From Clostridia bacterium (GTDB taxonomy: Bacteria > Bacillota > Clostridia > Oscillospirales > CAG-272): a stretch of 64,000 nt of DNA. The translations under genes were made by a program, and so were the position numbers. How positions within the stretch are numbered: position 1 is the stretch's first letter; each line of letters starts with the position of its first letter. This document shows positions 21,030-34,426 of the stretch, piece by piece. Under the pieces are notes generated by a model. It had not been told where the DNA came from. It was given only the letters and a program-made list of their open reading frames with translations, and did not search any database. Location of the stretch: positions 30,419 to 94,418 of the forward strand of contig JAFVTS010000010.1 in assembly GCA_017503105.1 (NCBI GenBank), in the 5' to 3' direction.

Positions 21030-22157
21030 TCAGTATTTTTTCGGATTTTTGAAGTATTGGTAGAGGTAGCAGGGGATCATACCGTTGTAGAGCTTGCGCA
21101 CCTTGTCCGCGCGCTTACCGTAAAGGCGTTCAAACGCGGGGTGCGAGGTGATGATGTATATCTGCCACGGCGCAAGAGCTCTGAAATGCTCTCCGATCTC
21201 GCGGTAAAGCCGCTCTACCGAGGCGGGGTTGCCGAGCCTTTCGCCGTACGGGGGATTTACCACCACGGTGGCGCGTCTTTCGGGCGCGGAGATCTTTCTC
21301 GCGTCGCAAACGAAGGGCTTCACCACGTCGAGCACGCCTGCCGCCCTCGCGTTTCTCTCCGTCAGGGCAACGCAGTTTTTGTCTATATCGGACGAATAAA
21401 CCTCAAAGCTCGTCCTGATTATTCCGTCGGCAGCCTCTTCACGCGCGTTTTTCCAGTGCTTTTTGTCAATGAAGGCGAACTCCTCACCCGCAAAGCTCCT
21501 CTTTGCCCCCGGGGCAACGTGCTTCATCATCATTGCCGCCTCTATTCCAAGCGTGCCGCTGCCGCACATCGGATCCCAAAGAAGGACGTCCTCTCTCGGG
21601 CGCGAGGTGGCAACTATCGCCGCCGCAAGAGTTTCCCTGATAGGCGCGGCGTTTGACTCTTTTCTGTATCCGCGCTTGTGGAGCGGAAGACCCGAGGTGT
21701 CTATCATCAGCGACGCCTCGTTGTTCAGAATGAAGAATTCCACCTGATATTTCGTGCCCTCCTCGGGGAACTGCGTAATGCCGTATTTTGACGACATCGA
21801 GCGCACTATCGCCTTTTTAATTATCGCCTGACAGTCAGGCACGGAGTGAAGCTGCGATTTTATCGCGTGTCCCTTGACGGGAAAGGCGTCGTCACGCCCG
21901 ATAAATTCGTACCACGGCAGAGCCCTCGTCCCCTCGAAAAGCTCCTCAAAGCTCTCCGCGTGAAACGAGCCTAATTTTATATAAACTCTCTCTGCATATC
22001 TCAAAAACACGTTTGACAGCGCGATAGCCTCTTCATCTCCGATGAAGGTCACTCGCCCGTCTATCGTTGAAATTCTCTCGTAACCCAAGGCGTCGATCTG
22101 CTCGCCGAGCAGGTGCTCAAGCCCGAAAAGACAGGTGGCAACAAGCTGAAGCTTCAT
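21030..22157 (-). CDS. THUMP-domain rRNA methyltransferase (RlmL/YpsC-like)
   Basis: ATCLFGLE, DTSGLPLHKRGYR, APIRETLAAA, DPMCGSGT, NPPYGERL. Confidence 0.9.
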   Translation of the reverse strand: MKLQLVATCLFGLEHLLGEQIDALGYERISTIDGRVTFIGDEEAIALSNVFLRYAERVYIKLGSFHAESFEELFEGTRALPWYEFIGRDDAFPVKGHAIKSQLHSVPDCQAIIKKAIVRSMSSKYGITQFPEEGTKYQVEFFILNNEASLMIDTSGLPLHKRGYRKESNAAPIRETLAAAIVATSRPREDVLLWDPMCGSGTLGIEAAMMMKHVAPGAKRSFAGEEFAFIDKKHWKNAREEAADGIIRTSFEVYSSDIDKNCVALTERNARAAGVLDVVKPFVCDARKISAPERRATVVVNPPYGERLGNPASVERLYREIGEHFRALAPWQIYIITSHPAFERLYGKRADKVRKLYNGMIPCYLYQYFKNPKKY

Positions 22158-22420
22158 TTTTTGTTCTCCAAAATAAGGATTTTTTCTTATTGTAGCATAA
22201 ATATGTTCTAAAGTCAATCCGACTATTGTAAAAATTGTATGGCGTAATCGAAACGACCTTGCTCCAAAACGGCACCGTAAAGCATCTTTCTCCCCTTTTC
22301 TTCATATAATTTATAAAACGGGAGAAAAATAGGAAAAATGCCACGCTAATTTATCAATTGTTCAAACTGAGTTAATTATTTTTTAACATTTATCTGCTAA
22401 AATATATTAGTCACGTACAA

Positions 22421-22497
22421 GGACCATTAGCTCAGTTGGTTAGAGCTACCGGCTCATAACCGGTCGGTCCTAGGTTCGAGTCCTAGATGGTCCACCA
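22421..22497 (+). tRNA. tRNA-Ile2 (anticodon CAT, lysidine type)
   Basis: Cloverleaf GGACCAT/ATGGTCC, D-arm AGCTCAGTTGGTTAGAGC, anticodon arm ACCGG-CTCATAA-CCGGT, T-arm CTAGG-TTCGAGT-CCTAG, encoded CCA. G1:C72 pairing excludes initiator; C4:G69 and C5:G68 are TilS/Ile2 determinants. Confidence 0.88.
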
Positions 22498-22506
22498 ACA
22501 AAAGAG

Positions 22507-22982
22507 AGATAACCCTCGCGGTTATCTCTCTTTTGTTGTCGAGCCGTCAGGCTCGGGCGTAGCTTCGCGCCCCGAGCTCTATGCTCGCAAAGCACGTCAA
22601 TCACAAAAGCTTTAAAGACCGAGCGCGAAATAGGTTCGCATTCCCGCCGAAGAGCGCGTCGAGCTTGCTCGTAAGCGGCAAGGCGAGGAATATTGCCCCA
22701 ACGGGGCAAAGACCTAGATGATTAAACCCCAAGATAACCCTCGCGGTTATCTCTCTTTTGTTGTCGAGCCGTCAGGCTCGGGCGTAGCTTCGCGCTCCGA
22801 GCTCTATACTCGCAAGGCACGCCTATCGCAGAAGCTACAAAGACCGAGCGCGAAATAGGTTCGCATTCCCGCCGAAGAGCGCGTCGAGCTTGCTCGTAAG
22901 CGGCAAGGCGAGGAATATTGCCCTGACGGGGCAAAGACCTAGATGGTCTAACTGAGATAACCCTCGCGGTTATCTCTTTTTT
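22507..22982 (+). repeat. tRNA-linked ~225-bp tandem repeat (two units plus a third terminator hairpin)
   Basis: AGATAACCCTCGCGGTTATCTCT begins at 22507, 22732 and 22955; units are nearly identical; each ends in CCTAGATG(GTC), matching the tRNA 3' end. Confidence 0.92.
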
Positions 22983-23062
22983 ACAAGAGATTATTTCGGC
23001 ATTAAATTCAGATGTGAAAGATGAGCTAATTACAGCCGAACACTGACAACCTAATAAGATGA

Positions 23063-23133
23063 AGCACGCGGAGTTAACGAAGAGCCCTGCGTGCTTTTTG
23101 TTTTTTATAAACGGTTAGAACAAAACAGTATAT
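23063..23133 (+). repeat. ~70-bp imperfect direct repeat, copy 1 (terminator-like)
   Basis: AGCACG...AGAGCCCTGCGTGCTTTTTGTTTTTTATAAACGGTTAGAACAAAACAGTAT aligns with 28548-28619. Confidence 0.85.
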
Positions 23134-23533
23134 TGCTTTTTACGGTATTCAAATTCTCCTAAAGAGACTATCTTCAAAGTTTATATTTGTTTGCCTTTCG
23201 GTGGAGGATCGTAGCATAGTTCTCGTATATGTAAACGGTCACTCGGAGCTTAAATTTTGCTGATAAAATGCAAGCCGTAAAGAGTCAAATCTTTATCTTT
23301 AATATCAAATATCATTCAACGAAGTCGGGTAGAAATACCCGGCTTTTTGTTTTACGGTGATACAAATTTTCAAGCCTTGCTTTATTTCCAATTTAAGACC
23401 GTTGACATATACAAGCGTTACAAGCAATTTTGTTTTCTTCTTACCGAACCACGCTACGATGGGGTGCGGTGCCGAAAGGCAAAAAATTTAAATTTAAGGA
23501 GAAAAATTCAGCAAGTGCGAACGTAGTAATGCA

Positions 23534-23592
23534 AAAACTCGGTTTTCTCAAACGCTCTAATATTGCATTTGAGAAAGCCGAGTCGCTCTTTT
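23534..23592 (-). terminator. Hairpin downstream of the 1284-aa gene
   Basis: ACTCGGTTTTCTCAAA...TTTGAGAAAGCCGAGT inverted repeat. Confidence 0.55.
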
Positions 23593-23611
23593 TAACTGAG
23601 TTAACTTTTAA

Positions 23612-26600
23612 TCAATCGTTTCTGTACGGTTTGTTTTTCAGAACCCAATCTACCAATTGCTGAAGTCCGTTCATATCTGCTTCGGAATTGAATATTTGAA
23701 CGAAATTCGTTTCGTATGTTTCAGTCGTATTAACACTTAAAAATTTATCTGCGTCAAATTCTTCTCTGATCGAAGTATCGAGGCAAAAATCGTATGGAAG
23801 TGACGTTGCGCTCTCGCCGGTGAGAAGGCTGTATATGAGCATTGACTGAATATAACCCGTCAGCATCGTTCCGTGCTTTCCGTCTTTTACAATGAAGGAG
23901 TTTATGCTATACGTTTGGGTGGCATTCGGAACGGTATACTCTCCCTTTAAAATGCCGTCTATCAAGCCGCCCCAATCCGCAACAAGAATTCCTTGATCCT
24001 CAAATCCTGCAAGAAGGTCCTTCTGGTAAGAGTATGTATCGCCGTAAGTGCTGTTGTAGCCGTAAGCGCATGCGGTACCCATCACTATAAATTTCACGTC
24101 AGGATTTGCTTCCCTGAAGAAATCCATAACCTTAATTATCGTTGTATCAAAATTCGATTCCGCACCGGGGGATATTACAACGTAATCATAGTAGCGGTCC
24201 TCTAAATAGCTTTTATGATCGTAGGAGCAGTGACTACAATTATCCGAAAAGATGCTTCCAACACCGTGTCCGCCAAAGGTCCAGTTAGTAACATCAACCT
24301 CTGCTCCCATTTTCTTGCAAAGCTGATAAAAATATCCCTGATCGTTCTGTCTTTCCTCTTGTGTCTTGGCGCCGGATTCCAAGACTGTTTTTCCCCAAAA
24401 CAGGTATGAGTTACCGATAAATATGAATTTTTTCCTATTTAACATATGTTCTTCTCCCAGCGTTTCTTTATATGCTTTCGTTTCTTCGCCAAGAAGATAT
24501 AAGGAACGCGCAAGGTCTTTGAAGCTGTCGGGGATCTCCGTGCTGTCGGCACTCGTAAGGACGAGATAAAGCAGGGAATAAACGCTTAGCGTCACGGTCG
24601 TTTGCTTTTCTCCGTCTTCAAAAATAACGGTGTGCGCTTTGTCGAAGGTTGCGGGCGTGGGCTCGGTCAGGGTGACGCAGTACTCTCCTGAAATCTCGGA
24701 CTCATAAACAGGCAAAGACTTCTCCGTTACATTTCCGTTTTCACTTACGCTCTCATAGGCTCTTACGTTATTTGAACCTCTGAAGTAAATTTTCATCTCG
24801 GTGTGTGAGGTGAGCACGAGCTTTCCCTCGGTTACTGTGACCGCATTTCCCGTAATCACGGGCGCGTAATCAGCAACGTCCACCACTCCCACCGAATCTA
24901 TGGCATTTCTGTCATTCTCGGATAAATCTGCGTTTGGAAGCACGTCCGCCAAATCGTCGGGATTGCCGTTCATACCTGTGAAGTAGATTTGCGCGTACGA
25001 GCCGTAATTTTTCATTGCCTTTACGAGATCGTGGACAGCGGATTCTTGCGGTGTGGCAAGAAGCTCATCCAAATAATCGTTGATTGTTGTTTTGTAAGGA
25101 GAAACATTTGTATCGCCATCTGCCTCATAGCTGACGGTTATTTCTCTCGTCATATCTATGGAGCGAAGAGGGAGCGTGAGCTTATACAAGCCCTTGTTTT
25201 CGCCCTCCGTCTCGGGGGAGAGCTCGGAAATAGCAAATTCCGCCTTCTTGCTGCCGCCGGCTGCCGTAGTATCAAGAACGAGCTTGGAGTCAGCGTAATC
25301 GGCGGCTTCTTTACAGAGCTTTATATACGCGTTAAAGGCGATTGAATCCCCGATAGAGGCACTCTTTGAAATCACGGCGGCGTCGGAAGATATAGCGTGA
25401 CCGTCGCATATTTCACAGCGAGTGACCGTTTCACGCTTGGCTTTGCACCACTCGCAAGTGTCGCCAATGAAGCTATGTGCACATTCGTAATTTACGTCGG
25501 AGCGATAGAACTTAACGTTATCTATAGCAAACAAGTCTTTCGTGTTACTGCTTGCTATCTGAGGAGTTCTGATATAGCCGGGAGTGAAGGACGCCGCACC
25601 CTTCATCGCAATCTCGGTGCCTACAAAGCCTGAAAGATTTGAAGTGGTCCAAGTAGTTTTATCGCTATCTGCATCGCTGATCGCCTTCAAACCGCTTGCA
25701 ACGCGCTCGCCGTTTACGTATACGTCAAATATGTTATCTTCGGGGATATGATGGACGGTGATGGTATAGAATACCCCTTTCGTTAAAACCACGCTTTCAC
25801 CGTTCGAATCTTTTATGTCGGTGTATGTACCACCTTCGGCAATTAGACGCTGAAGAGTGCCGTCTTTTGATATTTGCAACGGCTTGAAAACAATGGTTTT
25901 ACCGGAGGAAGGTGCCGCCGTCATATCGTCGGTACCTCTCGTATAGGAAGCTATCTCGAAGGGTGTTAACACTTGGTTACCGTAGTGCATAAAGTCTAAG
26001 GTAGCCACATACGAATTCCCGATAACGCCGCTATTTATAACTTTCTTCAAGGAGTTGAATCCATTATGTTGAAGAAAGTCGTTGCTTCCGCCGGTGTTGG
26101 TGGCGGCACCGAATTTGACGTAAAGGTTTCCCGTTTCCTCGTCAACTACGGTGCTGATTGCAGACGCGGTACCGCTGTTGCGAGCGAATCCGGTAAAGAA
26201 CGGAGAAGTTTCCGTACTTTCGCCGTAAGCGAGCATATTTGACGCGCCTGCAAGAGCGACAACCTCGTCAGGAGTCAGAATTCCGCCTTCGGAGTGGCTT
26301 GACATAGCGAGCGTGCGGGTTTCTGTAAGACCGCAATCCTTGCAGGTATAGCTTACCTCGTTGGTAGCTGCCGCAAGATCGTGGGTGTGAGTAAGCTCGT
26401 AATCGTGAACGTGCTCAAAGAAAGTATCGGAGTAGTAGAACTTTACGTTGTCCCAAGCGTATTGGTCAGCTGTGAGATTTTTAACCGTTGAGTCACTGAT
26501 CTGACAGGTTCTCGCAAGAGCGGGAATATAGTCAACCGCACCGTTTACGGTAATCTGGGTCACATCCGATGCATAAGTAAGCGTGCCTGAGGTGAAGTCC

Positions 26601-27466
26601 ATCTGATCGCTTTGAAGAGCGGTGAGTGCCTGAACATTTTCTATAATAAGCTTGCCGTCAACGTAAGCGTCGTATGTGTTGGGGGGAGAGGTTTCGTCAC
26701 CCGCAGGAGTATGGTGAACGGCAAAAGTATGGAAATTTCCGTCCTTAACGTTGACCGCGGTGGAAACGTAAGCGTTTTCACCCTTTGACGCGTCGAGATA
26801 CTGCACTGTTCCGCCGTTAAGAATGCGTAGGAAGTAAGGAATTGTCGCACCTCCGAGCGTGGTGCAGCCGTCAGAGCCCTTGAGGTAACACATAGTACCG
26901 AGAACTTGTACTGATTGCACGGAGAGAGTGTCGAAGAGAAGCATATCGACAGAGATTACGTAGGACTTGCCTTTGAGGGCTTCAAAGTTGTTAAGCGTGG
27001 AAACCTGGTATGGGGAGCTAAAGTCGGTTCTTACGAAGTTCTGAAAGGAAGTGTCGGTCTTAGTGGGCGTTACTGTAGGAGCGCCAAGCTTTGTGTAGGT
27101 GTTGTCGCTTTCATCGGTAACGGTAGAGATAGCGCTGCGGGGATCGTTTTCTCTTCCTTTTCCGTCGCTTGAGACAAAGAGCACGTTGTCGGCATATTTT
27201 GAGATTTCATCCGTGGGGAGAGAACCGCCGTATGGAAGCTCGCCAAAGCAGAGGTCGCATACTCTGTCGCCATTTACATCAATAGTCCCTCCGCAAACAG
27301 TACAGGTGTAGGTCGCCTCGGAGGCAGCATTGATTTGTTCGGTGTTGGTTACAAGATCGTTTTGCTCAGTCTGCGCTGTCTCTTCGTCCGCCGCGAATAT
27401 GTTCGTCGAAAGAGCGGAGAAGAGCATCGTGAGCACAAGCAAGAGAGAAATAATTTTCTTTTTCAT
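23612..27466 (-). CDS. Large secreted modular protein: two tandem LamG/lectin-like repeats, Cys-rich linkers, C-terminal SGNH/GDSL-like esterase
   Basis: Signal peptide; duplicated blocks (SAISTV.DE, SYV..D, VHH.P..N.YD.YV.G, DNVKFY.SD); CxxC pairs; C-terminal FIFIGNSY ... DGKHG (SGNH block I and DxxH). Confidence 0.75.
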   Translation of the reverse strand: MKKKIISLLLVLTMLFSALSTNIFAADEETAQTEQNDLVTNTEQINAASEATYTCTVCGGTIDVNGDRVCDLCFGELPYGGSLPTDEISKYADNVLFVSSDGKGRENDPRSAISTVTDESDNTYTKLGAPTVTPTKTDTSFQNFVRTDFSSPYQVSTLNNFEALKGKSYVISVDMLLFDTLSVQSVQVLGTMCYLKGSDGCTTLGGATIPYFLRILNGGTVQYLDASKGENAYVSTAVNVKDGNFHTFAVHHTPAGDETSPPNTYDAYVDGKLIIENVQALTALQSDQMDFTSGTLTYASDVTQITVNGAVDYIPALARTCQISDSTVKNLTADQYAWDNVKFYYSDTFFEHVHDYELTHTHDLAAATNEVSYTCKDCGLTETRTLAMSSHSEGGILTPDEVVALAGASNMLAYGESTETSPFFTGFARNSGTASAISTVVDEETGNLYVKFGAATNTGGSNDFLQHNGFNSLKKVINSGVIGNSYVATLDFMHYGNQVLTPFEIASYTRGTDDMTAAPSSGKTIVFKPLQISKDGTLQRLIAEGGTYTDIKDSNGESVVLTKGVFYTITVHHIPEDNIFDVYVNGERVASGLKAISDADSDKTTWTTSNLSGFVGTEIAMKGAASFTPGYIRTPQIASSNTKDLFAIDNVKFYRSDVNYECAHSFIGDTCEWCKAKRETVTRCEICDGHAISSDAAVISKSASIGDSIAFNAYIKLCKEAADYADSKLVLDTTAAGGSKKAEFAISELSPETEGENKGLYKLTLPLRSIDMTREITVSYEADGDTNVSPYKTTINDYLDELLATPQESAVHDLVKAMKNYGSYAQIYFTGMNGNPDDLADVLPNADLSENDRNAIDSVGVVDVADYAPVITGNAVTVTEGKLVLTSHTEMKIYFRGSNNVRAYESVSENGNVTEKSLPVYESEISGEYCVTLTEPTPATFDKAHTVIFEDGEKQTTVTLSVYSLLYLVLTSADSTEIPDSFKDLARSLYLLGEETKAYKETLGEEHMLNRKKFIFIGNSYLFWGKTVLESGAKTQEERQNDQGYFYQLCKKMGAEVDVTNWTFGGHGVGSIFSDNCSHCSYDHKSYLEDRYYDYVVISPGAESNFDTTIIKVMDFFREANPDVKFIVMGTACAYGYNSTYGDTYSYQKDLLAGFEDQGILVADWGGLIDGILKGEYTVPNATQTYSINSFIVKDGKHGTMLTGYIQSMLIYSLLTGESATSLPYDFCLDTSIREEFDADKFLSVNTTETYETNFVQIFNSEADMNGLQQLVDWVLKNKPYRND

Positions 27467-27582
27467 CTTGTGGTTTCCTTTTCTTAAATTTTTTTAGTTG
27501 CATATTGATTATAGCACAAAAATATGGTATAATCAAATATGAATTGTTATATATTGTTATAAGCGAGAGGTTATGATGCACT

Positions 27583-28542
27583 ATGGAATTGATAAAGAAA
27601 TATATTTATGAGGTATACAAGGAAAGTAATTTTACAAAAGCGGCACGAAAGCTTTTCATTTCGCAGCCTGCGCTCAGTTCGGCTGTTTCAAAATATGAAA
27701 AAAGCTTAGGGTTCCGAATATTTGACCGTTCCAAGAATCCCTTGAAAGTGACTGCGGAGGGAAGAATTCTGATAGAATCCATCGCAAACATCATTAATAT
27801 AGAAACCTTAGCGGAGCAGGAAATTTCTCTTATGAAGAGAGAGCCTAAAAACGAAATAGTAATAGGCGCGGCTACTTCCGTTGCGTATTATTTGATTCCA
27901 AAGATCTGCGCGATATTTCATAAAGAAAATCCCTCTGTATCAATAAAGATTGATTTGGGAAATACGACTATCTACGGTAATTTTTTTAAAAAAGTGCAAA
28001 ACGGAACGCTTGATCTTGTAATTGACTGTATTCCTACCTGGGATTCTCTTGAAAGCATCGTGATATGCAAGGAAAGTATGGTAGTGGTAGTGCCGGAGGA
28101 TATGGTCTCAGAAAGATTAAAGCGATATGCACTCACTTACGATGAATTACAGAAGGTTGACCTCTCCGACGTGGTAAGAGTGAAAGATAGTTCGCTGTTC
28201 GAGGATGTTTCCTTTGCTGATTTTCCGCCAACAAGCCTTATTATGAAATCTAAAATGAAGGAATTGTTCGGCGAGTATCATACGATTCCGTTGGTCGTTT
28301 TCAATCACCATAACAGTATACTTCATCACAGTTTGGCAAAAGAAGGAGTTGGAGCTGTTCTCGTAAGCATAGGTGCCGCAAAGGCGTTCTTTTCGAATTC
28401 GGATAAAGTGTCTTTCTTTTTGCTTGACAATGAAAAAGCCAAAAGAGAGATTTATCTGACAGTAGCAGACAAGAACCTTAATTCTCCGCTAATAAAAAGG
28501 GTCGTTGAAATTGCCAAAGCCGTGTGCGAAGATATAAAATAA
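27583..28542 (+). CDS. LysR-family transcriptional regulator
   Basis: NFTKAARKLFISQPALS..V.KYEKSLG..IFDRS; divergent from the large secreted gene. Confidence 0.95.
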   Translation: MELIKKYIYEVYKESNFTKAARKLFISQPALSSAVSKYEKSLGFRIFDRSKNPLKVTAEGRILIESIANIINIETLAEQEISLMKREPKNEIVIGAATSVAYYLIPKICAIFHKENPSVSIKIDLGNTTIYGNFFKKVQNGTLDLVIDCIPTWDSLESIVICKESMVVVVPEDMVSERLKRYALTYDELQKVDLSDVVRVKDSSLFEDVSFADFPPTSLIMKSKMKELFGEYHTIPLVVFNHHNSILHHSLAKEGVGAVLVSIGAAKAFFSNSDKVSFFLLDNEKAKREIYLTVADKNLNSPLIKRVVEIAKAVCEDIK

Positions 28543-28547
28543 AAACG

Positions 28548-28619
28548 AGCACGTAAGGTTCTAAAAAGAGCCTTGCGTGCTTTTTGTTTTTTATAAATGG
28601 TCAGAACAAAACAGTATTT
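28548..28619 (+). repeat. ~70-bp imperfect direct repeat, copy 2
   Basis: AGCACG...AGAGCCTTGCGTGCTTTTTGTTTTTTATAAATGGTCAGAACAAAACAGTAT; follows the LysR stop and abuts the recombinase truncation point. Confidence 0.85.
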
Positions 28620-29341
28620 TCTCCGGAAAGCTTGTGTGCGGACTTTGCAAACACAAGATGAGCGGAGAGAGCGGAATTAGTCAGAATAGCGAAACACATT
28701 ATTACTACGTTTGCGTGGCGTGAAGAAGAAAGAAACAAAAATGCGAAACGAAAGCAATACGCAAGCAAGAGCTTGAAGATATGGTAATAGGCGCGACAAC
28801 AAGATTGCTGAACACGCCCGACGTTATAGAAAAGATAGCAAAAACCATACATAATATTCACGAAAAAGAAACTCGCGACAATACGGCACTCAAGCTGCTT
28901 GTCAAAAAGCGAGAGGAAGCCTTCAAAGCAAGCAGAAATATCATAAAAGCGATCGAACAAGGCATTATCAACGATATGACAAAAGGTCGAATGAAGGAGC
29001 TTGAAGCCGAGATAAAGCAATACGACTTCGATATTGAAATGGAGAAGCAAAAATCGTATTCATACCTCTCGCTCGAAGATATAACCGCGTTTTTGAAAAG
29101 CAACGTCTTTGACAGTACGGACGATATAAACATTCGCAAGGCGATTGTCAATACCTTCATACGCGAAGTAATGCTTTATCCCGATAAGGTCATCATTACA
29201 TATAAGTTTTCCGACAAGATCGAGAATCATAAAATCACACCCGAAACAATAAACAAAACCGAAGAGCAGATAACCTCTGCTCTTTCTTATACCGATAGTT
29301 CGTGCTTATTCTATCCTGTGCCACCAACAAAAGAGAGATAA
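28619..29341 (+). pseudogene. Large serine recombinase C-terminal remnant (Zn ribbon plus coiled coil)
   Basis: FSGKLVCGLCKHKMSGESG...HYYYVCVA*RRKKQKCETKAIRK..LE with in-frame TGA at 28721; NIIKAIEQG, AIVNTFIREV; catalytic N-terminal domain missing. Confidence 0.85.
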
Positions 29342-29496
29342 CCCTCGCGGTTATCTCTCTTTTGTTGTCGAGCCGTCAGGCTCGGGCGTAGCGGAGCATT
29401 GTAAGCAAAGACGAGGGGCGCTTTCTTGTAAGTTTTACATTCGCGATGTAATATTCGGTTTGCTGCCAATATTCGGTGGAACTTGTATTAAAAGGC

Positions 29497-29525
29497 TTGA
29501 ATTGTCATATTGAATATGTTATAAT
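29497..29525 (+). promoter_or_regulatory. Sigma-A-type promoter of the deacetylase gene
   Basis: TTGAAT-17 bp-TATAAT. Confidence 0.6.
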
Positions 29526-29558
29526 GAACTTGTAAAATTCAAAATCGGAGGGATTTTT

Positions 29559-30410
29559 ATGAAATATAATTTTATCAGATTTCCGGGCGGAAAAAGCAAA
29601 GCTGTGACTCTCAGCTATGATGACGGTGCCTGCAACGACGTTCAATTTCTTGAAACCGTCAATAAATACGGTTTAAAATGCACGTTTAATCTTGTGGGCA
29701 AGAACGTGGAGAAGGGCGAGCCGCTCAGCGCTCAGTTTATTAAAGAAAACATGCTTGCAAAGGGGCACGAGGTCGCAACTCACGGTTACAATCACAGAGC
29801 CCTCAACAGGGTGCGTTCCATTGAGGGCATTCGCGACACTCTTGAATGCCGCCTTGCGCTTGAGCGCGCGCTTGGAATCATCGTGCGCGGTATGGCGTTC
29901 CCCGACGTTTCCGTGAATCGCTCAAGTCAGCCCGACCTTTACGAAACGATCAGGGAATATCTATGCGATCTTGATATTGCTTATGTGCGTTCTGCGGGTC
30001 AAGATAACAACACGTTCTCAATTCCCGACGATTGGCATCAGTGGATCCCCACGGCGCATCACGATAATTCGAACGTTATGGAATACATCGACGAGTTTTT
30101 GAATATGGACGTTGACAAAATGTACATTAGCCGGCGCAATGCAAAGCTCTTCTATCTTTGGGGGCACTCCTTTGAGTTCGAGCGCAAGAATAATTGGGAC
30201 CACTTGGAAGCCATTTGTGAGAAGCTTGGCGGAAAAGATGACGTCTGGTATGCGACGAATATCGAAATCTACAACTACGTTGAGGCGTACCGCCATCTGC
30301 AATACAGCGCGGACGGCACTATCGTCTACAACCCCACGCTCTATGAAATTTGGTTCGACATTGACAAAAAACTCTACCACATAACCCCCGGCGAAACTTT
30401 GAGGATATAA
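29559..30410 (+). CDS. Polysaccharide deacetylase family (CE4/NodB-like) protein
   Basis: KAVTLSYDDG, GHEVATHGYNH, RGMAFP, FYLWGHSFEF, WYATN. Confidence 0.9.
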   Translation: MKYNFIRFPGGKSKAVTLSYDDGACNDVQFLETVNKYGLKCTFNLVGKNVEKGEPLSAQFIKENMLAKGHEVATHGYNHRALNRVRSIEGIRDTLECRLALERALGIIVRGMAFPDVSVNRSSQPDLYETIREYLCDLDIAYVRSAGQDNNTFSIPDDWHQWIPTAHHDNSNVMEYIDEFLNMDVDKMYISRRNAKLFYLWGHSFEFERKNNWDHLEAICEKLGGKDDVWYATNIEIYNYVEAYRHLQYSADGTIVYNPTLYEIWFDIDKKLYHITPGETLRI

Positions 30411-30465
30411 AAGGTATAACACAAAAAACTTGCGGAGCACGCAAGGCGTGTGCTTTTTGCTGTAA

Positions 30466-30557
30466 GGCGTAGCTTCGCGCTACGAGCTCTATACTCGCAA
30501 GGCACGCCTGCCGCAGAAGCTTTAAAGCCTTGGATGTTTTTTGGGGCTCTGTTTTTG
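30466..30557 (+). repeat. Partial dispersed copy of the tRNA-linked repeat
   Basis: GGCGTAGCTTCGCGCTACGAGCTCTATACTCGCAAGGCACGCC...GCAGAAGCTTTAAAG matches the middle of the 225-bp unit. Confidence 0.88.
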
Positions 30558-30636
30558 TAAAAGCCAACCCGAAATTCGTTTAGAAAGCGGGCAGTTCAAC
30601 AAAAAGTGCAGAGCAAACGCGGTAATACGCGTCATA

Positions 30637-30665
30637 TTGACATTTTACAGCTTTGGGTTTATAAT
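30637..30665 (+). promoter_or_regulatory. Consensus sigma-A promoter heading the AT-rich gene array
   Basis: TTGACA (30637)-17 bp-TATAAT (30660). Confidence 0.75.
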
Positions 30666-30669
30666 AAAA

Positions 30670-30873
30670 ATGGAGAATGACCCGAGCGGGCACTTTTTGC
30701 CGTCAGCATTGATAACGGGGTTCTTTATAGTAGCGACAATAGGTTTTGCGGCAACCGTCTATTCCGATTATAAGGATGACGGACAAGTATTTAACGGAAG
30801 CGTATCATCCAAAGATTATGTTGTATATACGATAGTTGACGATGTTATGGCATTAGGAGTAAGAGGAGAATAG
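30670..30873 (+). pseudogene. RHS toxin post-core remnant
   Basis: MENDPSGHFLPSALITGFFIVATIGFAATVYSDYKDDGQVFNGSV: DPxG motif followed by a small-residue hydrophobic segment, as at the RHS core/toxin junction; no YD repeats upstream. Confidence 0.6.
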
Positions 30874-31431
30874 ATGAAAACATATATTTTTGAATGGACA
30901 ATAAAAGATGATAATGGTGATGATCATTTAGTAAAAATCAAAAAGGAGGAGCGGAATCGATATATCTATTTAGATGATATTAAGATCGATATGATTCCTA
31001 ACGATTTTCATCACTCTGAAATTTTCAATTTTGAGTATAATTTCAGCATTTTAAACAAGAACGCAAAAATTATATATAGAGTAAGTAGCAATACAAATCC
31101 AATAGACTTGTTCATAGACGGTCAAAATGTTGATGCGAATGGACGTAAAAATTGTCATGTGCCAAAGCTACCTATTTATGGAATTATATCGCTTGTTTTA
31201 GGATTTGTTTTAACATTTTTTATCGAGATGCAGGTGATTAAACTAAACGATCCTAATTATATCTTATGGGCTATTTGTCCGTGGGGTCCGATGCTGTTTT
31301 TAAGAATGGTAATTAATGCTCCAATAATCGTTCAAATTCCTAAACCGGTAGCGCATATAATAAGAATTATTTTTCAAGCATTTTTGGTAGTTGTATTAGG
31401 ACAAATGTTGTGGTATCTTAAAACAAGATAA
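30874..31431 (+). CDS. Hypothetical membrane protein (candidate orphan immunity protein)
   Basis: AT-rich ORF; AGAGGAG RBS; three C-terminal hydrophobic segments; abuts the RHS remnant stop. Confidence 0.7.
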   Translation: MKTYIFEWTIKDDNGDDHLVKIKKEERNRYIYLDDIKIDMIPNDFHHSEIFNFEYNFSILNKNAKIIYRVSSNTNPIDLFIDGQNVDANGRKNCHVPKLPIYGIISLVLGFVLTFFIEMQVIKLNDPNYILWAICPWGPMLFLRMVINAPIIVQIPKPVAHIIRIIFQAFLVVVLGQMLWYLKTR

Positions 31432-31480
31432 AACTTCTTATGTGTAAAAATATAATAGCACATAAAAACACTATGAAAAA

Positions 31481-31933
31481 ATGTTGAATACATACCGACT
31501 ACAAAAAAGTTTTGTAAAAGCAATAATCGTTATTGGAATTGGTCTATTTATGCTTTGTAATTTGTTTTCTTGTGCAGGACTTTCAGACTGGGAATACGAG
31601 CTCCCCCAAGGATACTGTATAATAAGGGTAAATTCATGTGATATTCACATCGGATCAAATAACGGTGTTAAAGTTGACCGCTTTATAGTGAGTTTTTGCT
31701 ATAATGACAGATATGTTTGTGCAAAACGTGTTGAAGTTTCTGAAAACGATAGTTATGATGATATAATGTCTATGGTTCCTGATGATGCATTTTATTGTAT
31801 AGTTGATACTATAACGAATAAGGTATACGATCGATTAAATACCAAACAGTTCGAAGAGTTGTGTACCGAACTTGAAGTTTATAATCTGTGCGATTGGATT
31901 GATACCACAACAAAGCCCGATGGCGCAAAATAA
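31481..31933 (+). CDS. DUF3997-like lipoprotein (candidate immunity protein)
   Basis: LFSCAGLSDWEYELPQGYCIIRVNS...FYCIVDT...WIDT pattern; lipobox. Confidence 0.65.
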   Translation: MLNTYRLQKSFVKAIIVIGIGLFMLCNLFSCAGLSDWEYELPQGYCIIRVNSCDIHIGSNNGVKVDRFIVSFCYNDRYVCAKRVEVSENDSYDDIMSMVPDDAFYCIVDTITNKVYDRLNTKQFEELCTELEVYNLCDWIDTTTKPDGAK

Positions 31934-31975
31934 CCCAAATGTTGATGTTTCATTATTATAACTACGGAGTGACAT

Positions 31976-32476
31976 ATGAAAAAAACGAAAAAAATTGTAG
32001 GTTTATTGCTTTTATGCTCAATCTTGTTTTTAAGTTCTTGCGAAAATCCTATCATTTACGAACGACAACCGCAAAGATTTCCGGGATCAAAATGGAAGAC
32101 AGAAAATGGAGAAATTTCTTTTGTTGTTGAAGCAATCCATTTGCCGCTTCCTCAATTAGCAGGAACTAACGGATATGGCGATGATCCTAATGTTTATTAT
32201 TTTGCACAAGGCGAGGTTAATGTAAACGGCGAGAAAATAGGTGTATATTTTGAAAATTTTGCCGGCTCATATGATGTATGCATCATTTCGAAAGAAATAG
32301 AAGAACTTGCTAAAACAACTACAGAATATCTTCATCCCGGAGGGGGAGAAGAGGCAAAATATGTAATTGCTTGGATTGATTGTAATTATAAAAGCAAGAA
32401 ACGTTTTGATGCTGTAGTGACAGAAAGCAAATATTTTAATGTTGGAGAAAAATTCGTCTTTAGGCGAGTCGATTAA
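31976..32476 (+). CDS. Hypothetical lipoprotein (candidate immunity protein)
   Basis: MKKTKKIVGLLLLCSILFLSSC lipobox; GGAG RBS. Confidence 0.75.
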   Translation: MKKTKKIVGLLLLCSILFLSSCENPIIYERQPQRFPGSKWKTENGEISFVVEAIHLPLPQLAGTNGYGDDPNVYYFAQGEVNVNGEKIGVYFENFAGSYDVCIISKEIEELAKTTTEYLHPGGGEEAKYVIAWIDCNYKSKKRFDAVVTESKYFNVGEKFVFRRVD

Positions 32477-32494
32477 CAAGCGGATTCCGTCGCC

Positions 32495-32638
32495 CTCGGG
32501 CGTAGCTTTGCGCTCTGTACTTTATGCTTGCAAAGCACGCCTGCCGCAGAAGCTTTAAAGCTTTGGATTTTATTTTTGGCTTTGTTTTTGAATGGACAAT
32601 AAAAGATGATAATGGTGATGATCATTTAGTAAAAATCA
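32495..32638 (+). repeat. Partial repeat copy fused to an exact 54-bp duplicate from the 5' end of the 30874 gene
   Basis: 32499-32590 aligns with 30466-30557; 32585-32638 is identical to 30887-30940. Confidence 0.88.
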
Positions 32639-32738
32639 GCGAAGCATGCAGATATTAATCCTGGAGATCAAGGAAAATCATGGCGGCAGTTTTTGTTAGC
32701 TGGTGCGTTCGGAAAATATTATAATTACGGAGTGACAT

Positions 32739-33398
32739 ATGAGTAAAACCAAAAAAATCATACTATTTATTATAACTATTGTCGTTGTTGCGATTGTAAC
32801 AGCTTGCTCTTCTTTCTTATATATTTTTGTCAATTCTTCTGACGTATCAACTATTGGCAGGATAGAACACGATCAAAATAGGTTCAAGCAAGAACTTATA
32901 AGTGAAGGTGTATTGGACGAAGAGAGTTTCACATCGTGGATCTCTGCCGATTGGACGTATGAATACGGTACTTTGAAAATTGAAAAAAATGATTTGGTTG
33001 CTACCCTTTACATTGAGGCTCATGTAGATGAGTATATTGTTGATCTTTCATTTTTAAAAAATAGCAGTGCTGAAATAACAAATGAAGATAAGCTATTTGT
33101 TACGCAAGTTATCGAATGCGCAAAAGTTGTTTTTGAAAACGATAAGTTTTCTGCAGATATGCTTGAAGCAAAATATGATAAAGGCTATTTGATAGAAAAC
33201 TTTGATTCGAATTGCGTTCAAGAAGAATCGTTCAAAGCTTGCTACTTGAAGGTGCTTAATGATGATTCCGCGTTGGAAAGTGCCCCTGTGTATTACAAGT
33301 ATAAAACCGTAATGCATACCGATAAGATCGTTCTTAAAGAATGTTCTATTCAATATACCCAAAAGGTGTCAGAGGACTTTTATGAGGAGGTGAACTGA
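32739..33398 (+). CDS. Hypothetical membrane-anchored protein
   Basis: N-terminal TM/signal segment; AT-rich; shares a ~25-bp upstream segment with the 31976 gene. Confidence 0.75.
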   Translation: MSKTKKIILFIITIVVVAIVTACSSFLYIFVNSSDVSTIGRIEHDQNRFKQELISEGVLDEESFTSWISADWTYEYGTLKIEKNDLVATLYIEAHVDEYIVDLSFLKNSSAEITNEDKLFVTQVIECAKVVFENDKFSADMLEAKYDKGYLIENFDSNCVQEESFKACYLKVLNDDSALESAPVYYKYKTVMHTDKIVLKECSIQYTQKVSEDFYEEVN

Positions 33399-33400
33399 AA

Positions 33401-34030
33401 ATGAAATTGTTTAAAAACATTTTTATTTTTCTCCTCGCAGGTATTATAGGAGTAATTGGCGGTTTTAGCATTGCCGTTGGGGTAGTATCTTATTCGGGTG
33501 AATATTCGAAGGTAAACGAATATTCAAAAAAATCCAAAGCAGAGCTTAAAGAGCTTTCGGATTTGTTTGCTTCGTCGGGTTACAGTGTGTCAGATATTTC
33601 TACTGATGATGAGAAACATATGATTTTCCTCGTATCATCGGGCGAAAAAAGCATTGATATAAGTTCCGCCAATTTAAACGCAAACGTGGCGGTCACTTAT
33701 AATTCGGATGGAAGGTCGGTCGAAGTTCGTTTCATTGATAAAATGAGCTCTGAAAGTGAAGCTAATATAACAATTTCCGGATATAAAGGTCTCTTGAGTT
33801 TACTTGATACCTTTTATGATGCTAAGGACTTCACTAAGCTGCTTGAACTTTTTGATGCAAGTAAGCTAACGTATGGTAGTAATAGTGTATATGAAATTTC
33901 TGTTCCTACCGATGCTTATAAAAATTATCGCAATTCGGAAGCTGTAACGGTAAGATACGAACTTCAAAAATCCGATACCGGTTATAGTTTGCTGTCTTCT
34001 GTTTCCGTTCAACTGCCGACAGAAAGTTAA
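33401..34030 (+). CDS. Hypothetical membrane-anchored protein
   Basis: N-terminal TM; GAGGAGGTG RBS; followed by hairpin GCCCGAGAGC-CCCGT-GCTCTCGGGT. Confidence 0.75.
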   Translation: MKLFKNIFIFLLAGIIGVIGGFSIAVGVVSYSGEYSKVNEYSKKSKAELKELSDLFASSGYSVSDISTDDEKHMIFLVSSGEKSIDISSANLNANVAVTYNSDGRSVEVRFIDKMSSESEANITISGYKGLLSLLDTFYDAKDFTKLLELFDASKLTYGSNSVYEISVPTDAYKNYRNSEAVTVRYELQKSDTGYSLLSSVSVQLPTES

Positions 34031-34147
34031 ACGGTTAGTTTAGTGCCCGAGAGCCCCGTGCTCTCGGGTGCTTAAATTTCATCGAACGCTTTCCCGTTTT
34101 TTATGAAGGTGCGTTTTTTCGTTTTTCTTCAAAATGCATTTTTCCTC

Positions 34148-34176
34148 TTGACATTTGCCTTCCTATGTGTTATAAT
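34148..34176 (+). promoter_or_regulatory. pyr operon sigma-A promoter
   Basis: TTGACA-17 bp-TATAAT. Confidence 0.8.
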
Positions 34177-34189
34177 ATTAAAAAATAAA

Positions 34190-34305
34190 ATCTTTAATTC
34201 GGTACAGAGATGCCGACAAGGTTTTCTACAAAACGGACGCGCCCTTGCTTGTCGAGGGGGCGGTATTTTGCGGAATCTTGCTCGGAGCGAGGTTCTTTTT
34301 TTTGC
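34190..34305 (+). promoter_or_regulatory. PyrR-binding loop and attenuator
   Basis: CTTTAA..GGTA-CAGAGA-TGCC..AAGG matches the PyrR binding-loop layout; downstream hairpins with T tracts (CGCCCTT..GAGGGGGCG; GAATCTTGCTC..GAGCGAGGTTCTTTTTTT). Confidence 0.8.
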
Positions 34306-34426
34306 AATTTCGCGGTTGTTTTGAGTGCTTTTTTGTCGAAGCTTATCGTCCTTGTACCGTTTCGCGTTATGTTTTTATAATGTAATCGCGGCGTATTTTT
34401 TATAATAATTAGGAAGGAAGACCGAT

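What the first reader, a model, noticed from the sequence alone, without database searches (positions are those of the whole stretch)
22498..22982. tRNA-linked 225-bp repeats that rebuild the tRNA T-arm around a ~71-nt structured insert
Seen: the tRNA ends TAGG-TTCG-AGT-CCTAGATGGTCCACCA. Each repeat unit contains TAGG-TTCG (22631, 22856), then ~71 nt, then AGA-CCTAGATG(GTC) (22710, 22935), then the same terminator hairpin that follows the real tRNA. The insert folds internally (ATTCC/GGAAT, CGCC/GGCG, GAGC/GCTC, TTGCCC/GGGCAA). Each unit therefore looks like a tRNA 3' half with its T-loop expanded by a multi-stem element. Established: tRNA-3'-end tandem repeats exist (E. coli tyrT), but I do not know of one with a T-loop insert. 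Inference: a non-autonomous tRNA-targeting mobile unit, a structured ncRNA or tRNA mimic, or a decoy att site.
Basis: partly seen in the sequence, partly recalled or inferred. Interest (0 to 1): 0.75.

Follow-up and report, generated by a model that had tools for sequence, protein, structure and literature searches.

The report
tRNA-linked repeat with T-loop module
The repeats behind this tRNA gene are copies of the tRNA's own tail split by a conserved folded 71-base module, a lineage-specific counterpart of the long-known but unexplained "tRNA-linked repeats" of E. coli.

Summary
A tRNA(CAT) gene (22421-22497) is followed by 2.1 tandem 225-bp units. Each unit has TAGG-TTCG, a 71-nt insert, then AGA-CCTAGATG(GTC) and a copy of the tRNA's terminator.

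The insert is a conserved three-helix module. A covariance model finds it in 33 of 150 other genomes of the same family and in 0 of 150 genomes of other families of the class. It lies behind at least 13 tRNA species, behind a tmRNA, and beside the 5' end of tRNA-Ser on the opposite strand. It always follows TTCG, and its flanks match the local gene. 22 of 23 modelled base pairs covary.

E. coli RtT units behind tyrT and lysV have the same layout, so this is a new sequence family of a known kind (tRNA-linked repeats, TLRs). It matches no Rfam family. This scan has noted similar elements before on other DNA.

Best reading (about 0.45): a gene-less, DNA-level insertion or recombination module that keeps the tRNA intact. 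Module cores about 90% identical sit in different tRNA contexts, copy number varies (2 versus 3 units), and unit pairs bracket small gene islands. Main rival: a structured RNA processed from terminator read-through. No recombinase or Y1 transposase is linked.

The parts
22421..22497 (+). tRNA gene, anticodon CAT (ARAGORN calls it Met; an Ile2 or initiator identity was not resolved). T arm is CTAGG-TTCGAGT-CCTAG, acceptor 3' strand ATGGTCC, then A-CCA.
   Evidence: (Rfam tRNA 70.6 bits)
22496..22538 (+). H1: terminator-like palindrome directly after the tRNA, with 19-nt arms and 100% complementarity. It starts in the last bases of the tRNA. Its T run is interrupted (CTCTTTTGTTG).
   Evidence: (I3)
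22507..22982 (+). Tandem array: 2.1 units of 225 bp. The parallel contig C5 has 3 units.
22556..22617 (+). Spacer segment 'repeat R' inside unit 1 (again in unit 2, +225). In most relatives this position holds the antisense copy of the tRNA 3' end. Repeat R also occurs at 30466-30527 and 32487-32560.
22631..22638 (+). Unit 1: pseudo T-stem 5' strand TAGG plus TTCG.
22639..22709 (+). Unit 1: conserved module. P1 is 22640-22648 with 22682-22691 (one bulged A). P2 is 22655-22663 with 22668-22677 (tip AGC-TTG-CT). P3 is 22693-22699 with 22703-22709.
   Evidence: (98.9 bits, E 1.9e-21)
22710..22720 (+). Unit 1: rest of the T loop (AGA), T-stem 3' strand CCTAG and the first 3 nt of the acceptor 3' strand.
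   Evidence: (D5)
22731..22763 (+). H1 copy 2.
   Evidence: D2, I1
22856..22863 (+). Unit 2: TAGG plus TTCG.
22864..22934 (+). Unit 2: conserved module (97.6 bits).
22935..22948 (+). Unit 2: AGA-CCTAG-ATGGTC, 13 of 14 identical to the tRNA.
   Evidence: D5
22954..22982 (+). H1 copy 3: a shorter stem followed by T6, the only copy that fits the simple terminator scan with an uninterrupted T run.
29321..29392 (+). Exact 72-nt second copy of window 22492-22563 (CCACCA, H1 and the first ~25 nt of the unit). It lies at the far side of a 6.8-kb low-GC segment and is overlapped by the stop of a 186-aa ORF with no family.

Best explanation
The array consists of units of a tRNA-linked repeat (TLR), the kind of element known from E. 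coli (RtT), but of a separate sequence family confined to one family of uncultured animal-gut Clostridia. Each unit is a copy of the neighbouring tRNA's T arm and 3' end, split after TTCG by a conserved ~71-75-nt module (P1 enclosing P2, then P3). In most relatives the unit is preceded by an inverted copy of the tRNA 3' end and a small GC hairpin.

I think it works at the DNA level. The module is the cis-acting, single-strand-folded part of a gene-less insertion or recombination unit. The unit enters at TTCG^A of a tRNA-type sequence while a copy of the tRNA 3' end (often with the terminator) is supplied or duplicated, so the tRNA gene stays intact. Recombination between the repeated 3' ends and terminators then expands or contracts arrays, and further DNA accumulates at the same site.

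Shown here: the architecture, the flank switching, the covariation, the module exchange between tRNA contexts, the copy-number polymorphism and the cargo between unit pairs. Inferred: folding as single-stranded DNA, the trans-acting enzyme (unknown), and the order of events. Read-through past the leaky first terminator would also put the units into the tRNA transcript, so an RNA product is likely a by-product or a second role.
For:: the model hits 33 of 150 other genomes of the family (25 of 97 genera counting G000), with up to 8 copies per genome; 0 of 150 genomes from other families of the class.

47 of 96 hits have a same-strand tRNA within 450 nt upstream, of 13 anticodon species. In 33 of those 47 the distance is 72-110 nt. 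The 5 nt before TTCG match the cognate T-stem 5' strand at 4.28 of 5 on average, against 2.45 for non-cognate tRNAs. The 12 nt of T-stem 3' strand plus acceptor match at 8.13 against 5.55.

TTCG is kept even where the tRNA reads TCCG (Cys, Tyr, Gln-TTG), so it belongs to the module.

12 hits in 11 loci lie beside the 5' end of tRNA-Ser, or a 5'-half fragment of it, on the opposite strand. The module again follows TTCG and the layout is the same. That is hard to reconcile with tRNA mimicry or co-transcription.

module cores 62/69 and 63/70 identical sit in different tRNA contexts of one genome. One array (L040) holds two module types (34/72 identical).

2 versus 3 units in two contigs that are 99.9% identical.

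unit pairs bracket 2.85 kb and 5.7 kb of cargo (DNA methyltransferases, a rhamnosidase) with no recombinase.

an exact 72-nt repeat of the tRNA end plus H1 lies 6.8 kb downstream in the window.

two tRNA-Pro genes without a module also lack the inverted copy.

22 of 23 pairs show changes on both sides. 370 cells carry such changes, against 148 +/- 10.6 in shuffles and 45-135 in slid controls.

in E. coli the analogous lysV unit is a 156-nt presence/absence difference that aligns inside the T loop. The strain without it carries the G variant seen in the distal K-12 repeat copy.
Against: No clean empty-versus-occupied pair was found for this family; relatives are too diverged.

No mobilising enzyme is linked. 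Among 120 loci the recurrent neighbours are AraC regulators, ABC transporters and the like.

Y1 (HUH) transposase is present in 13 of 33 module-positive and 46 of 117 module-negative genomes, 39% in both groups.

The module pattern has 0 hits in viral contigs, and one representative has none in phage records.

Module cores also cluster partly by tRNA type across genera (31 label changes against 40 in shuffles). Many units are therefore old and vertically kept, which also fits a selected RNA gene.

The units lie between a leaky and a strong terminator, as the transcribed E. coli rrB and RtT do (PMC8144298 passages).

The test for strand-specific G.T pairs was inconclusive (116 G.T against 118 A.C cells).

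In the window itself the inverted tRNA copy is not recognisable.
Confidence: 0.45

Rival explanations
1. A structured small RNA, RtT-like. RNA polymerase reads through the weak first terminator. Each unit is then cut out by the tRNA 3'-processing enzymes, because it ends in the tRNA's own T stem and acceptor strand, and it acts as a stable regulatory RNA or tRNA mimic. The module would be the functional fold.
For: The fold is conserved with covariation. The same tRNA carries the same module subtype across genera, for example Gln-CTG, Tyr and Arg-CCT. The units are on the tRNA strand, 72-110 nt behind it in 33 of 47 cases. No promoter-like site lies inside the array, and only the last hairpin has a full T run. 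E. coli TLRs are transcribed and processed, and rrA/B/F bind Hfq and CsrA (PMC8144298, passages read). One contig of an RNA library joins a tRNA(CAT) 3' end, 91 nt and a module (depth 2.6, from a relative, and DNA carry-over is not excluded).
Against: An RNA role does not explain why the flanks copy the local tRNA, or why near-identical cores sit in different tRNA contexts. The tRNA-Ser 5'-side copies lie on the strand opposite to the tRNA and are embedded in antisense tRNA sequence. Unit pairs bracket cargo DNA. Expression was not shown, because only assembled contigs could be laid.
Confidence: 0.3
2. Plain integration scars. The units are attL/attR remnants of ordinary integrase-borne islands or prophages that target the tRNA 3' end. 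The module would be a double-stranded attP arm with protein-binding sites, and the array a pile of decayed elements.
For: There are direct repeats of the tRNA 3' end. A low-GC island (about 23.0-34.4 kb) follows the array. An exact 72-nt repeat of tRNA end plus terminator bounds a 6.8-kb segment. tRNA-Ser 5'-half fragments cut in the anticodon loop lie near some units.
Against: Compensatory changes that keep three helices are not expected for duplex protein-binding sites. No integrase lies next to the units in the window, in the bracketed segments or among the recurrent neighbours at 120 loci. The module was not found in viral contigs or phage records. The split falls inside what should be a contiguous core.
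Confidence: 0.12
3. A decoy or spare tRNA 3' half, for example bait for a tRNA-cutting toxin or for an integrase.
For: Only the resemblance to the tRNA T arm and acceptor strand.
Against: The antisense tRNA-Ser 5'-side copies do not fit this reading. In the window the copies lack the CCA end and most of the acceptor strand. No defence or toxin genes recur nearby.
Confidence: 0.03

Closest known systems
E. coli tRNA-linked repeats (TLRs) / Rfam RtT RNA (RF00391): rttR behind tyrT-tyrV, the unit behind lysV, and rrA/B/F behind 5S rRNA
   Same: Both lie directly behind a stable-RNA gene on the same strand, often in tandem, between terminators. Both end in a copy of that gene's 3' end. In the E. 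coli sequence I read, the T arm is split after TTCG (TTTG at lysV) by a 62-68-nt GC-rich multi-hairpin insert, and an inverted piece of the tRNA 3' half lies just upstream. Both show presence/absence and copy-number polymorphism. Function and origin are stated as unknown in PMC8144298 (passages read).
   Different: There is no detectable sequence or model relationship. RF00391 scores 134-137 bits on the E. coli units but gives no hit at E<=10 in window 21500-24000. My model scores under 10 bits on the tyrT locus. The helix topology differs: the RtT consensus has one stem enclosing two hairpins, whereas this module has P1 around P2 followed by P3. The hosts are in a different phylum. In the window the tRNA-end copy is 11-14 nt, not 18-19.
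Direct repeats of tRNA 3' ends left by integrase-borne islands, and gene-less derivatives of such elements (CIME-type elements; name recalled, not from a call)
   Same: The tRNA 3' end is regenerated or duplicated, DNA accretes behind the tRNA, and gene-less units are bounded by att-like repeats.
   Different: No integrase is linked. A conserved, covarying fold sits inside the pseudo T loop. An inverted tRNA copy is present.
Recombination sites that act as folded single strands: integron attC and CTX-phage attP(+) (attC papers seen as a search listing only; the CTX-phage case is recalled)
   Same: Both have imperfect inverted copies of the target separated by a loop and bulged structured parts. 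Both are gene-less units or small cassettes stacked at one platform with no recombinase in cis.
   Different: No integron integrase or Xer dependence was tested. The platform is a tRNA gene. The sequence motifs are unrelated. The analogy is inference only.
IS200/IS605-derived palindromic mini-elements and REP/REPIN with RAYT
   Same: These are also small hairpin elements whose fold is kept by compensatory change. Insertion after a fixed tetranucleotide would fit the constant TTCG.
   Different: Y1 transposase presence is unrelated to module presence (39% against 39%). Copy number is low (1-8 per genome). Local target sequence is duplicated in direct and inverted form.

Membership tests
tRNA-linked repeats (TLR) as defined for E. 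coli | Located immediately downstream of a tRNA or rRNA gene in the same operon and orientation | tested here: met
   The array starts 10 nt after the tRNA on the same strand. In relatives 47 of 96 hits have a same-strand tRNA within 450 nt upstream.
tRNA-linked repeats (TLR) as defined for E. coli | 18-19 bp at the unit's 3' end identical to the 3' end of the upstream gene (PMC8144298) | tested here: inconclusive
   In the window the copies are shorter: 11 nt in unit 1 and 13 of 14 nt in unit 2, without CCACCA. In relatives copies of up to 16 nt plus A-CCA are exact (L070, L071).
Rfam RF00391 RtT RNA | Score at or above the gathering threshold (45 bits) of the covariance model | tested here: not met
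   No RtT hit at E<=10 in window 21500-24000. The same search gives 134-137 bits on the E. coli units.
Rfam RF00391 RtT RNA | Architecture: inverted tRNA piece, T-stem 5' strand plus TTCG, structured insert, T-stem 3' strand plus acceptor strand | tested here: met
   Read directly for E. coli and for this family. In the window itself the inverted piece is replaced by another repeat.
tRNA gene or pseudogene | Recognised as a cloverleaf by ARAGORN or the Rfam tRNA model | tested here: not met
   Only the gene at 22421-22497 is called.
Integrase-mediated island (attL/attR) | Tyrosine or serine recombinase gene at one end of the repeat-bounded DNA | tested here: not met
   No recombinase family was found in the island ORFs tested, in the bracketed cargo, or in the nine most recurrent neighbour clusters, which are the only ones I annotated, at 120 loci.
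Integrase-mediated island (attL/attR) | Direct repeat of the tRNA 3' end bounding foreign DNA | tested here: met
   A 72-nt exact repeat lies at 22492-22563 and 29321-29392, around low-GC DNA.
IS200/IS605 mini-elements / REP-RAYT | Co-occurrence with a Y1 (HUH) transposase gene in the genome | tested here: not met
   13 of 33 module-positive and 46 of 117 module-negative genomes carry PF01797. Related genomes are not independent, so this is descriptive only.
Folded single-strand recombination sites (attC / CTX attP type) | Recombination of the folded strand by a dedicated or host tyrosine recombinase | not testable with these tools
   Only the inverted-copy-plus-bulge geometry can be seen.
Small protein gene (as tpr in the E. 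coli tyrT repeats) | An open frame conserved across the module | tested here: not met
   All three frames are stop-free about equally often (62, 64 and 53 of 89). Module lengths of 68-91 nt are not in steps of three.

The most novel reading that the evidence does not exclude
TLR-type units, here and in E. coli, are a general and so far unrecognised class of gene-less mobile DNA. A lineage-specific folded module, acting as a single strand with an unknown trans-acting host enzyme, inserts at TTCG^A of tRNA-type sequences and has the local 3' end copied in direct and inverted form. This keeps the tRNA alive and creates a landing pad where further DNA accumulates.
Probability: 0.3. Interest if true: 0.85.

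Novelty: new variant of a known kind. Interest (0 to 1): 0.66.

Why it matters
tRNA-linked repeats have been known in E. coli since 1978, and a 2021 paper still states that they have no known function (PMC8144298, passages read). This window shows that a distant lineage of uncultured animal-gut Clostridia uses the same odd layout: a tRNA tail split in its T loop by a folded insert, with an inverted copy upstream. The module is different, strongly covarying and exchangeable between sites. That makes the layout a product of a mechanism and not an E. coli curiosity. It also supplies a large natural alignment (96 copies here, and at least 120 more contigs) for finding that mechanism. If the units are insertion modules, they help explain how tRNA genes become hot spots for gene gain without any visible integrase. 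If they are RNAs, they are a new family of tRNA-operon small RNAs.

Tried and rejected
- Rfam at E<=10 over 21500-24000 gave only the tRNA and weak chance hits. Rfam gathering thresholds on 20 loci without a called tRNA found tmRNA and opposite-strand tRNAs but no family for the module.
- Assembly artefact or chance: rejected.
- Coding potential of the module: rejected.
- Empty site for this locus: RlmL orthologues in 28 relatives carry no tRNA or module within 1.5 kb, and the other neighbours are not syntenic, so no comparison was possible.
- tRNA-Pro loci with and without a unit, in one genus and in a further genome, are too diverged to fix the insertion boundaries.
- Metagenome scan with the 29-nt distal flank: 0 hits.
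- Viral contigs with the module pattern: 0 hits. Phage records with one representative unit: no match. Plasmids were not searched.
- Y1 transposase profile: no association. Other enzyme families were not profiled.
- Neighbour clustering at 120 loci found no recombinase among the nine most recurrent clusters, which are the ones I annotated.
- The 186-aa ORF ending in the 72-nt repeat looked to me, from memory, like the tail of a large serine recombinase. Pfam, NCBIfam, PHROGs and PDB sequence searches gave nothing significant, so I dropped that reading.
- RNA evidence: only assembled contigs could be laid, so expression, ends and strand could not be read.
- G.T against A.C asymmetry as a strand test: inconclusive because of register shifts in the alignment. 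RNAalifold on the MAFFT and model alignments recovers only P1 and part of P2.
- E. coli mobilome preprint (10.1101/2024.07.17.603846, passages read): the tyrT-rttR region is enriched, but the authors attribute this to RNA/DNA heteroduplexes and saw no circles. Its supplements were not seen.
- Literature: the searches 'tRNA-linked repeat' (2 papers), rttR/RtT/tyrT/tRNA-linked (6 papers), partial tRNA/T-loop/integration (19 papers) and folded single-stranded/attC/tRNA gene (19 papers) returned no description of this family or of a T-loop-split reading of TLRs. Only the listings were read, plus the passages named above.

Full report
**1. What is in the window**

A single tRNA gene with anticodon CAT lies at 22421-22497 on the + strand. 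Its 3' part reads CTAGG-TTCGAGT-CCTAG-ATGGTCC-A-CCA. A perfect 19-nt-arm palindrome, here called H1, starts in its last bases (22496-22538).

Tandem Repeats Finder reports 22507-22982 as 2.1 copies of a 225-bp unit at 92% identity. Each unit has these parts:
- H1.
- A ~90-nt spacer.
- TAGG-TTCG (22631-22638 and 22856-22863).
- A 71-nt insert (22639-22709 and 22864-22934).
- AGA-CCTAG-ATG(GTC), which is 11 and 13-of-14 nt of the tRNA's T-loop end, T-stem 3' strand and acceptor strand.

The last H1 copy (22954-22982) is shorter and is the only one followed by six T. No promoter-like site lies inside the array.

A second contig of the same assembly (C5, 16.4 kb) is 99.9% identical to this region but carries three units. 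Contigs from public DNA runs cover the unit junctions. The array is therefore real and its copy number varies.

**2. The insert is a conserved, covarying module**

A DNA search of 200 genomes of the same family hit 15 of them, and only over the insert. From 23 copies I built a covariance model with three helices: P1 enclosing P2, then P3.

The model finds:
- 7 copies in the window's own genome: the array in both contigs, plus two copies on contig C36.
- Hits in 33 of 150 other genomes of the family (25 of 97 genera counting the window's own), with up to 8 copies per genome.
- No hit in 150 genomes drawn from other families of the class.

Nearly all of the rows shown were metagenome-assembled genomes labelled Clostridia, Oscillospiraceae, Eubacteriales or uncultured Ruminococcus, many of them from goat, sheep, deer, cattle and buffalo guts. 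Two hits outside the group are probably chance.

On the 96-copy alignment A2, 22 of 23 pairs show changes on both sides. 370 cells carry such changes, against 148 +/- 10.6 in column shuffles and 45-135 when the partners are slid by 1-3 columns. P1 is paired in 94% of cells. The alignment was fitted to the model, which favours it. RNAalifold alone recovers P1 and part of P2.

The most constant letters are GGTTCGCAT at the 5' edge, the P2 tip AGC-TYG-CT and AT(A/C)TT before P3. One genome has a short form without P2 (L103). No frame is conserved. No Rfam family matches.

**3. The flanks follow the local gene**

Of the 96 copies, 47 have a same-strand tRNA within 450 nt upstream. In 33 of those 47 the module starts 72-110 nt after the tRNA. 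The tRNAs are of 13 anticodon species:
- Met/CAT
- Glu CTC and TTC
- Gln CTG and TTG
- Cys
- Arg CCT
- Gly CCC
- Lys
- Pro CGG
- Ser CGA and GGA
- Tyr

The five bases before TTCG match the cognate T-stem 5' strand at 4.28 of 5 on average, against 2.45 for other tRNAs. The twelve bases after the module match the cognate T-stem 3' strand plus acceptor strand at 8.13, against 5.55. The cognate tRNA is strictly the best match in 23 of 46 cases. Examples:
- Pro: GCAAG-TTCG ... CTTGT-CACCTCG-A-CCA, exact.
- Ser-GGA: GTGAG / CTCAC.
- Tyr: GGTGG / CCACC.

TTCG is kept even where the tRNA's own loop reads TCCG, so TTCG belongs to the module.

Of the 49 copies without such a tRNA:
- 22 lie within 300 nt of a contig end.
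- One lies 198 nt behind a tmRNA gene.
- 12 copies in 11 loci, including the two on the window's own contig C36, lie beside the 5' end of tRNA-Ser, or a 5'-half fragment of it, on the opposite strand. There the module follows TTCG in the antisense copy of the acceptor and D arm (..CCAC-TTCG^ATAT-CTCTCC), with the same overall layout.

The target is therefore a TTCG^A context followed by about 12-20 nt and a hairpin. It is not the T loop as such.

**4. The full layout**

In most relatives the order is as follows:
- tRNA.
- Terminator palindrome H1.
- An inverted copy of the tRNA 3' end. It starts TGG where CCA is encoded, and lacks TGG in L052, where CCA is not encoded, so it is copied from DNA or the primary transcript and not from mature tRNA.
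- A small GC hairpin, often with a GCGAAGC loop.
- T-stem 5' strand plus TTCG, the module, and the rest of the tRNA 3' end.
- Often H1 again.

Two tRNA-Pro genes without a module also lack the inverted copy. In the window the inverted copy is not recognisable. Its place is taken by a short hairpin and by a ~62-nt repeat that recurs twice in the adjacent island.

**5. Signs of DNA-level dynamics**

- Copy number differs between the two parallel contigs.
- Module cores 62/69 and 63/70 identical lie in different tRNA contexts of the same genome (Gln against Pro; Gln against the tRNA-Ser 5' side), while their flanks are unrelated. One array behind tRNA-Cys holds two module types only 34/72 identical. 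One unit behind tRNA-Lys has Glu-type flanks.
- On a tree of 56 cores (71 columns, poorly resolved), the tRNA label changes 31 times against 40 (minimum 35) in shuffles. The genome label changes 40 times against 46.6 (minimum 42). There is some vertical persistence and repeated exchange.
- Pairs of units bracket 2.85 kb and 5.7 kb of cargo (two DNA methyltransferases, a rhamnosidase and small unknown ORFs) with no recombinase.
- In the window, an exact 72-nt copy of CCACCA plus H1 plus the start of the unit lies at 29321-29392. It bounds a 6.8-kb part of a low-GC island (about 23.0-34.4 kb, 35-48% GC against 52-57%) that sits between the tRNA and pyrimidine-synthesis genes.
- RlmL orthologues in 28 relatives have no tRNA or module beside them. 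The whole tRNA-plus-array-plus-island block was not found at this position in the relatives searched.

**6. What is not linked**

- Among 120 module loci, the nine most recurrent neighbour clusters, which are the ones I annotated, are AraC regulators (15 loci), an ABC transporter (10), an unknown protein (6), a 23S-IVS protein (5) and other non-recombinase families. None is a recombinase or transposase.
- Y1 transposase genes occur in 39% of both module-positive and module-negative genomes. Related genomes are not independent.
- The module pattern is not in IMG/VR contigs, and one representative unit matches no phage record.

**7. Comparison with what is known**

E. coli tRNA-linked repeats (TLRs) are defined by 18-19 bp identical to the 3' end of the upstream tRNA or rRNA. 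They number 22 at ten loci and are said to have no known function. Three of them, rrA/B/F, are transcribed by terminator read-through and bind Hfq and CsrA (PMC8144298, passages read).

Reading the tyrT-tyrV-rttR locus, each RtT unit is GGGGAAGGAT..TTCGACC (an inverted tRNA-Tyr 3' half), then AAGG-TTCG, a 68-nt insert, then AAT-CCTTC-CCCCACC-A-CCA. The lysV unit has the same build, with TTTG. So the T-loop split and the inverted copy are features of the classical TLRs too. I found no paper that says so.

At lysV, strain Z217-4 lacks 156 nt relative to K-12. The gap aligns inside the T loop. The remaining single copy carries the G variant of K-12's distal repeat. This fits an insertion whose proximal tRNA end is the newer copy, but it rests on one base.

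RF00391 scores 134-137 bits on the E. coli units and nothing on the window. My model scores under 10 bits on the E. coli tyrT locus. The helix topologies differ. This is therefore the same kind of element but not the same family.

Earlier notes of this scan describe similar tRNA-linked palindromic modules in gut Clostridia, Bacteroidota, candidate-phylum bacteria and Thermococcus. A sequence look-up found none that matches this module. I used those notes as leads only.

**8. Verdict**

I rank the explanations as follows:
- A gene-less, site-specific insertion or recombination module whose fold is the cis-acting part (0.45).
- A read-through-derived structured RNA (0.30).
- Plain integrase scars (0.12).
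- A decoy (0.03).
- The rest is unassigned.

The enzyme, the single-stranded intermediate and the direction of events are inferences. No expression data could be read. It is a new variant of a known but unexplained kind.

Noticed in passing
window 22556-22617, 22781-22842, 30466-30527, 32487-32560: A ~62-74-nt repeat (GGCGTAGCTTCGCGC...GCTTTAAAG) lies inside each unit's spacer. It recurs twice after genes in the low-GC island, each time following a hairpin or a gene end. It is not part of the conserved module, and in this window it replaces the inverted tRNA copy.
   Followed up: partly
window 23000-34400: A low-GC island (35-48% against 52-57%) lies between the array and the amidohydrolase (dihydroorotase-like) and carB genes. 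It holds a 1284-aa protein with no family (23612-27466, minus strand), a LysR regulator, a polysaccharide deacetylase, a DUF3997 protein and several small ORFs without families.
   Followed up: partly
window 28781-29341: A 186-aa ORF whose last codons and stop lie inside the 72-nt repeat of tRNA end plus terminator. It has no significant match in Pfam, NCBIfam, PHROGs or PDB sequences.
   Followed up: yes
G000:C36:442-541 and 678-774 (L107): Two more modules in the window's own genome, 236 nt apart, next to an antisense 5'-half fragment of tRNA-Ser(TGA) that ends in the anticodon loop. No whole tRNA was called in the 3 kb fetched.
   Followed up: partly
L149:1-340 and L071 (upstream of tRNA-Pro CGG): A different kind of tRNA-linked repeat on the 5' side. 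Copies of the first ~20 nt of tRNA-Pro, up to the D-loop GG, are each followed by a non-tRNA stretch, repeated in tandem with a period of about 160 nt upstream of the real gene (two copies in L149).
   Followed up: no
L088:235-603 and 801-897: A module lies 198 nt downstream of a tmRNA gene on the same strand.
   Followed up: no
L103:801-1153: Three tandem short-form units behind tRNA-Gln(TTG), in which P2 is replaced by a small cap on P1. P2 is therefore dispensable in at least one lineage.
   Followed up: no
window 22459-22478 joined to 22676 or 22901 (tables 5 and 5c): Contigs of two public DNA runs carry another module variant directly after a 20-nt stretch resembling the tRNA from the anticodon-stem 3' strand to TTCG. 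Some copies may retain more of the tRNA body, or interrupt a tRNA gene.
   Followed up: no
L276:600-880 against L277:141-265 (E. coli lysV): The lysV RtT unit is a 156-nt presence/absence polymorphism between K-12 and strain Z217-4, bounded by a ~58-nt direct repeat of tRNA end, terminator and 10 further nt.
   Followed up: partly
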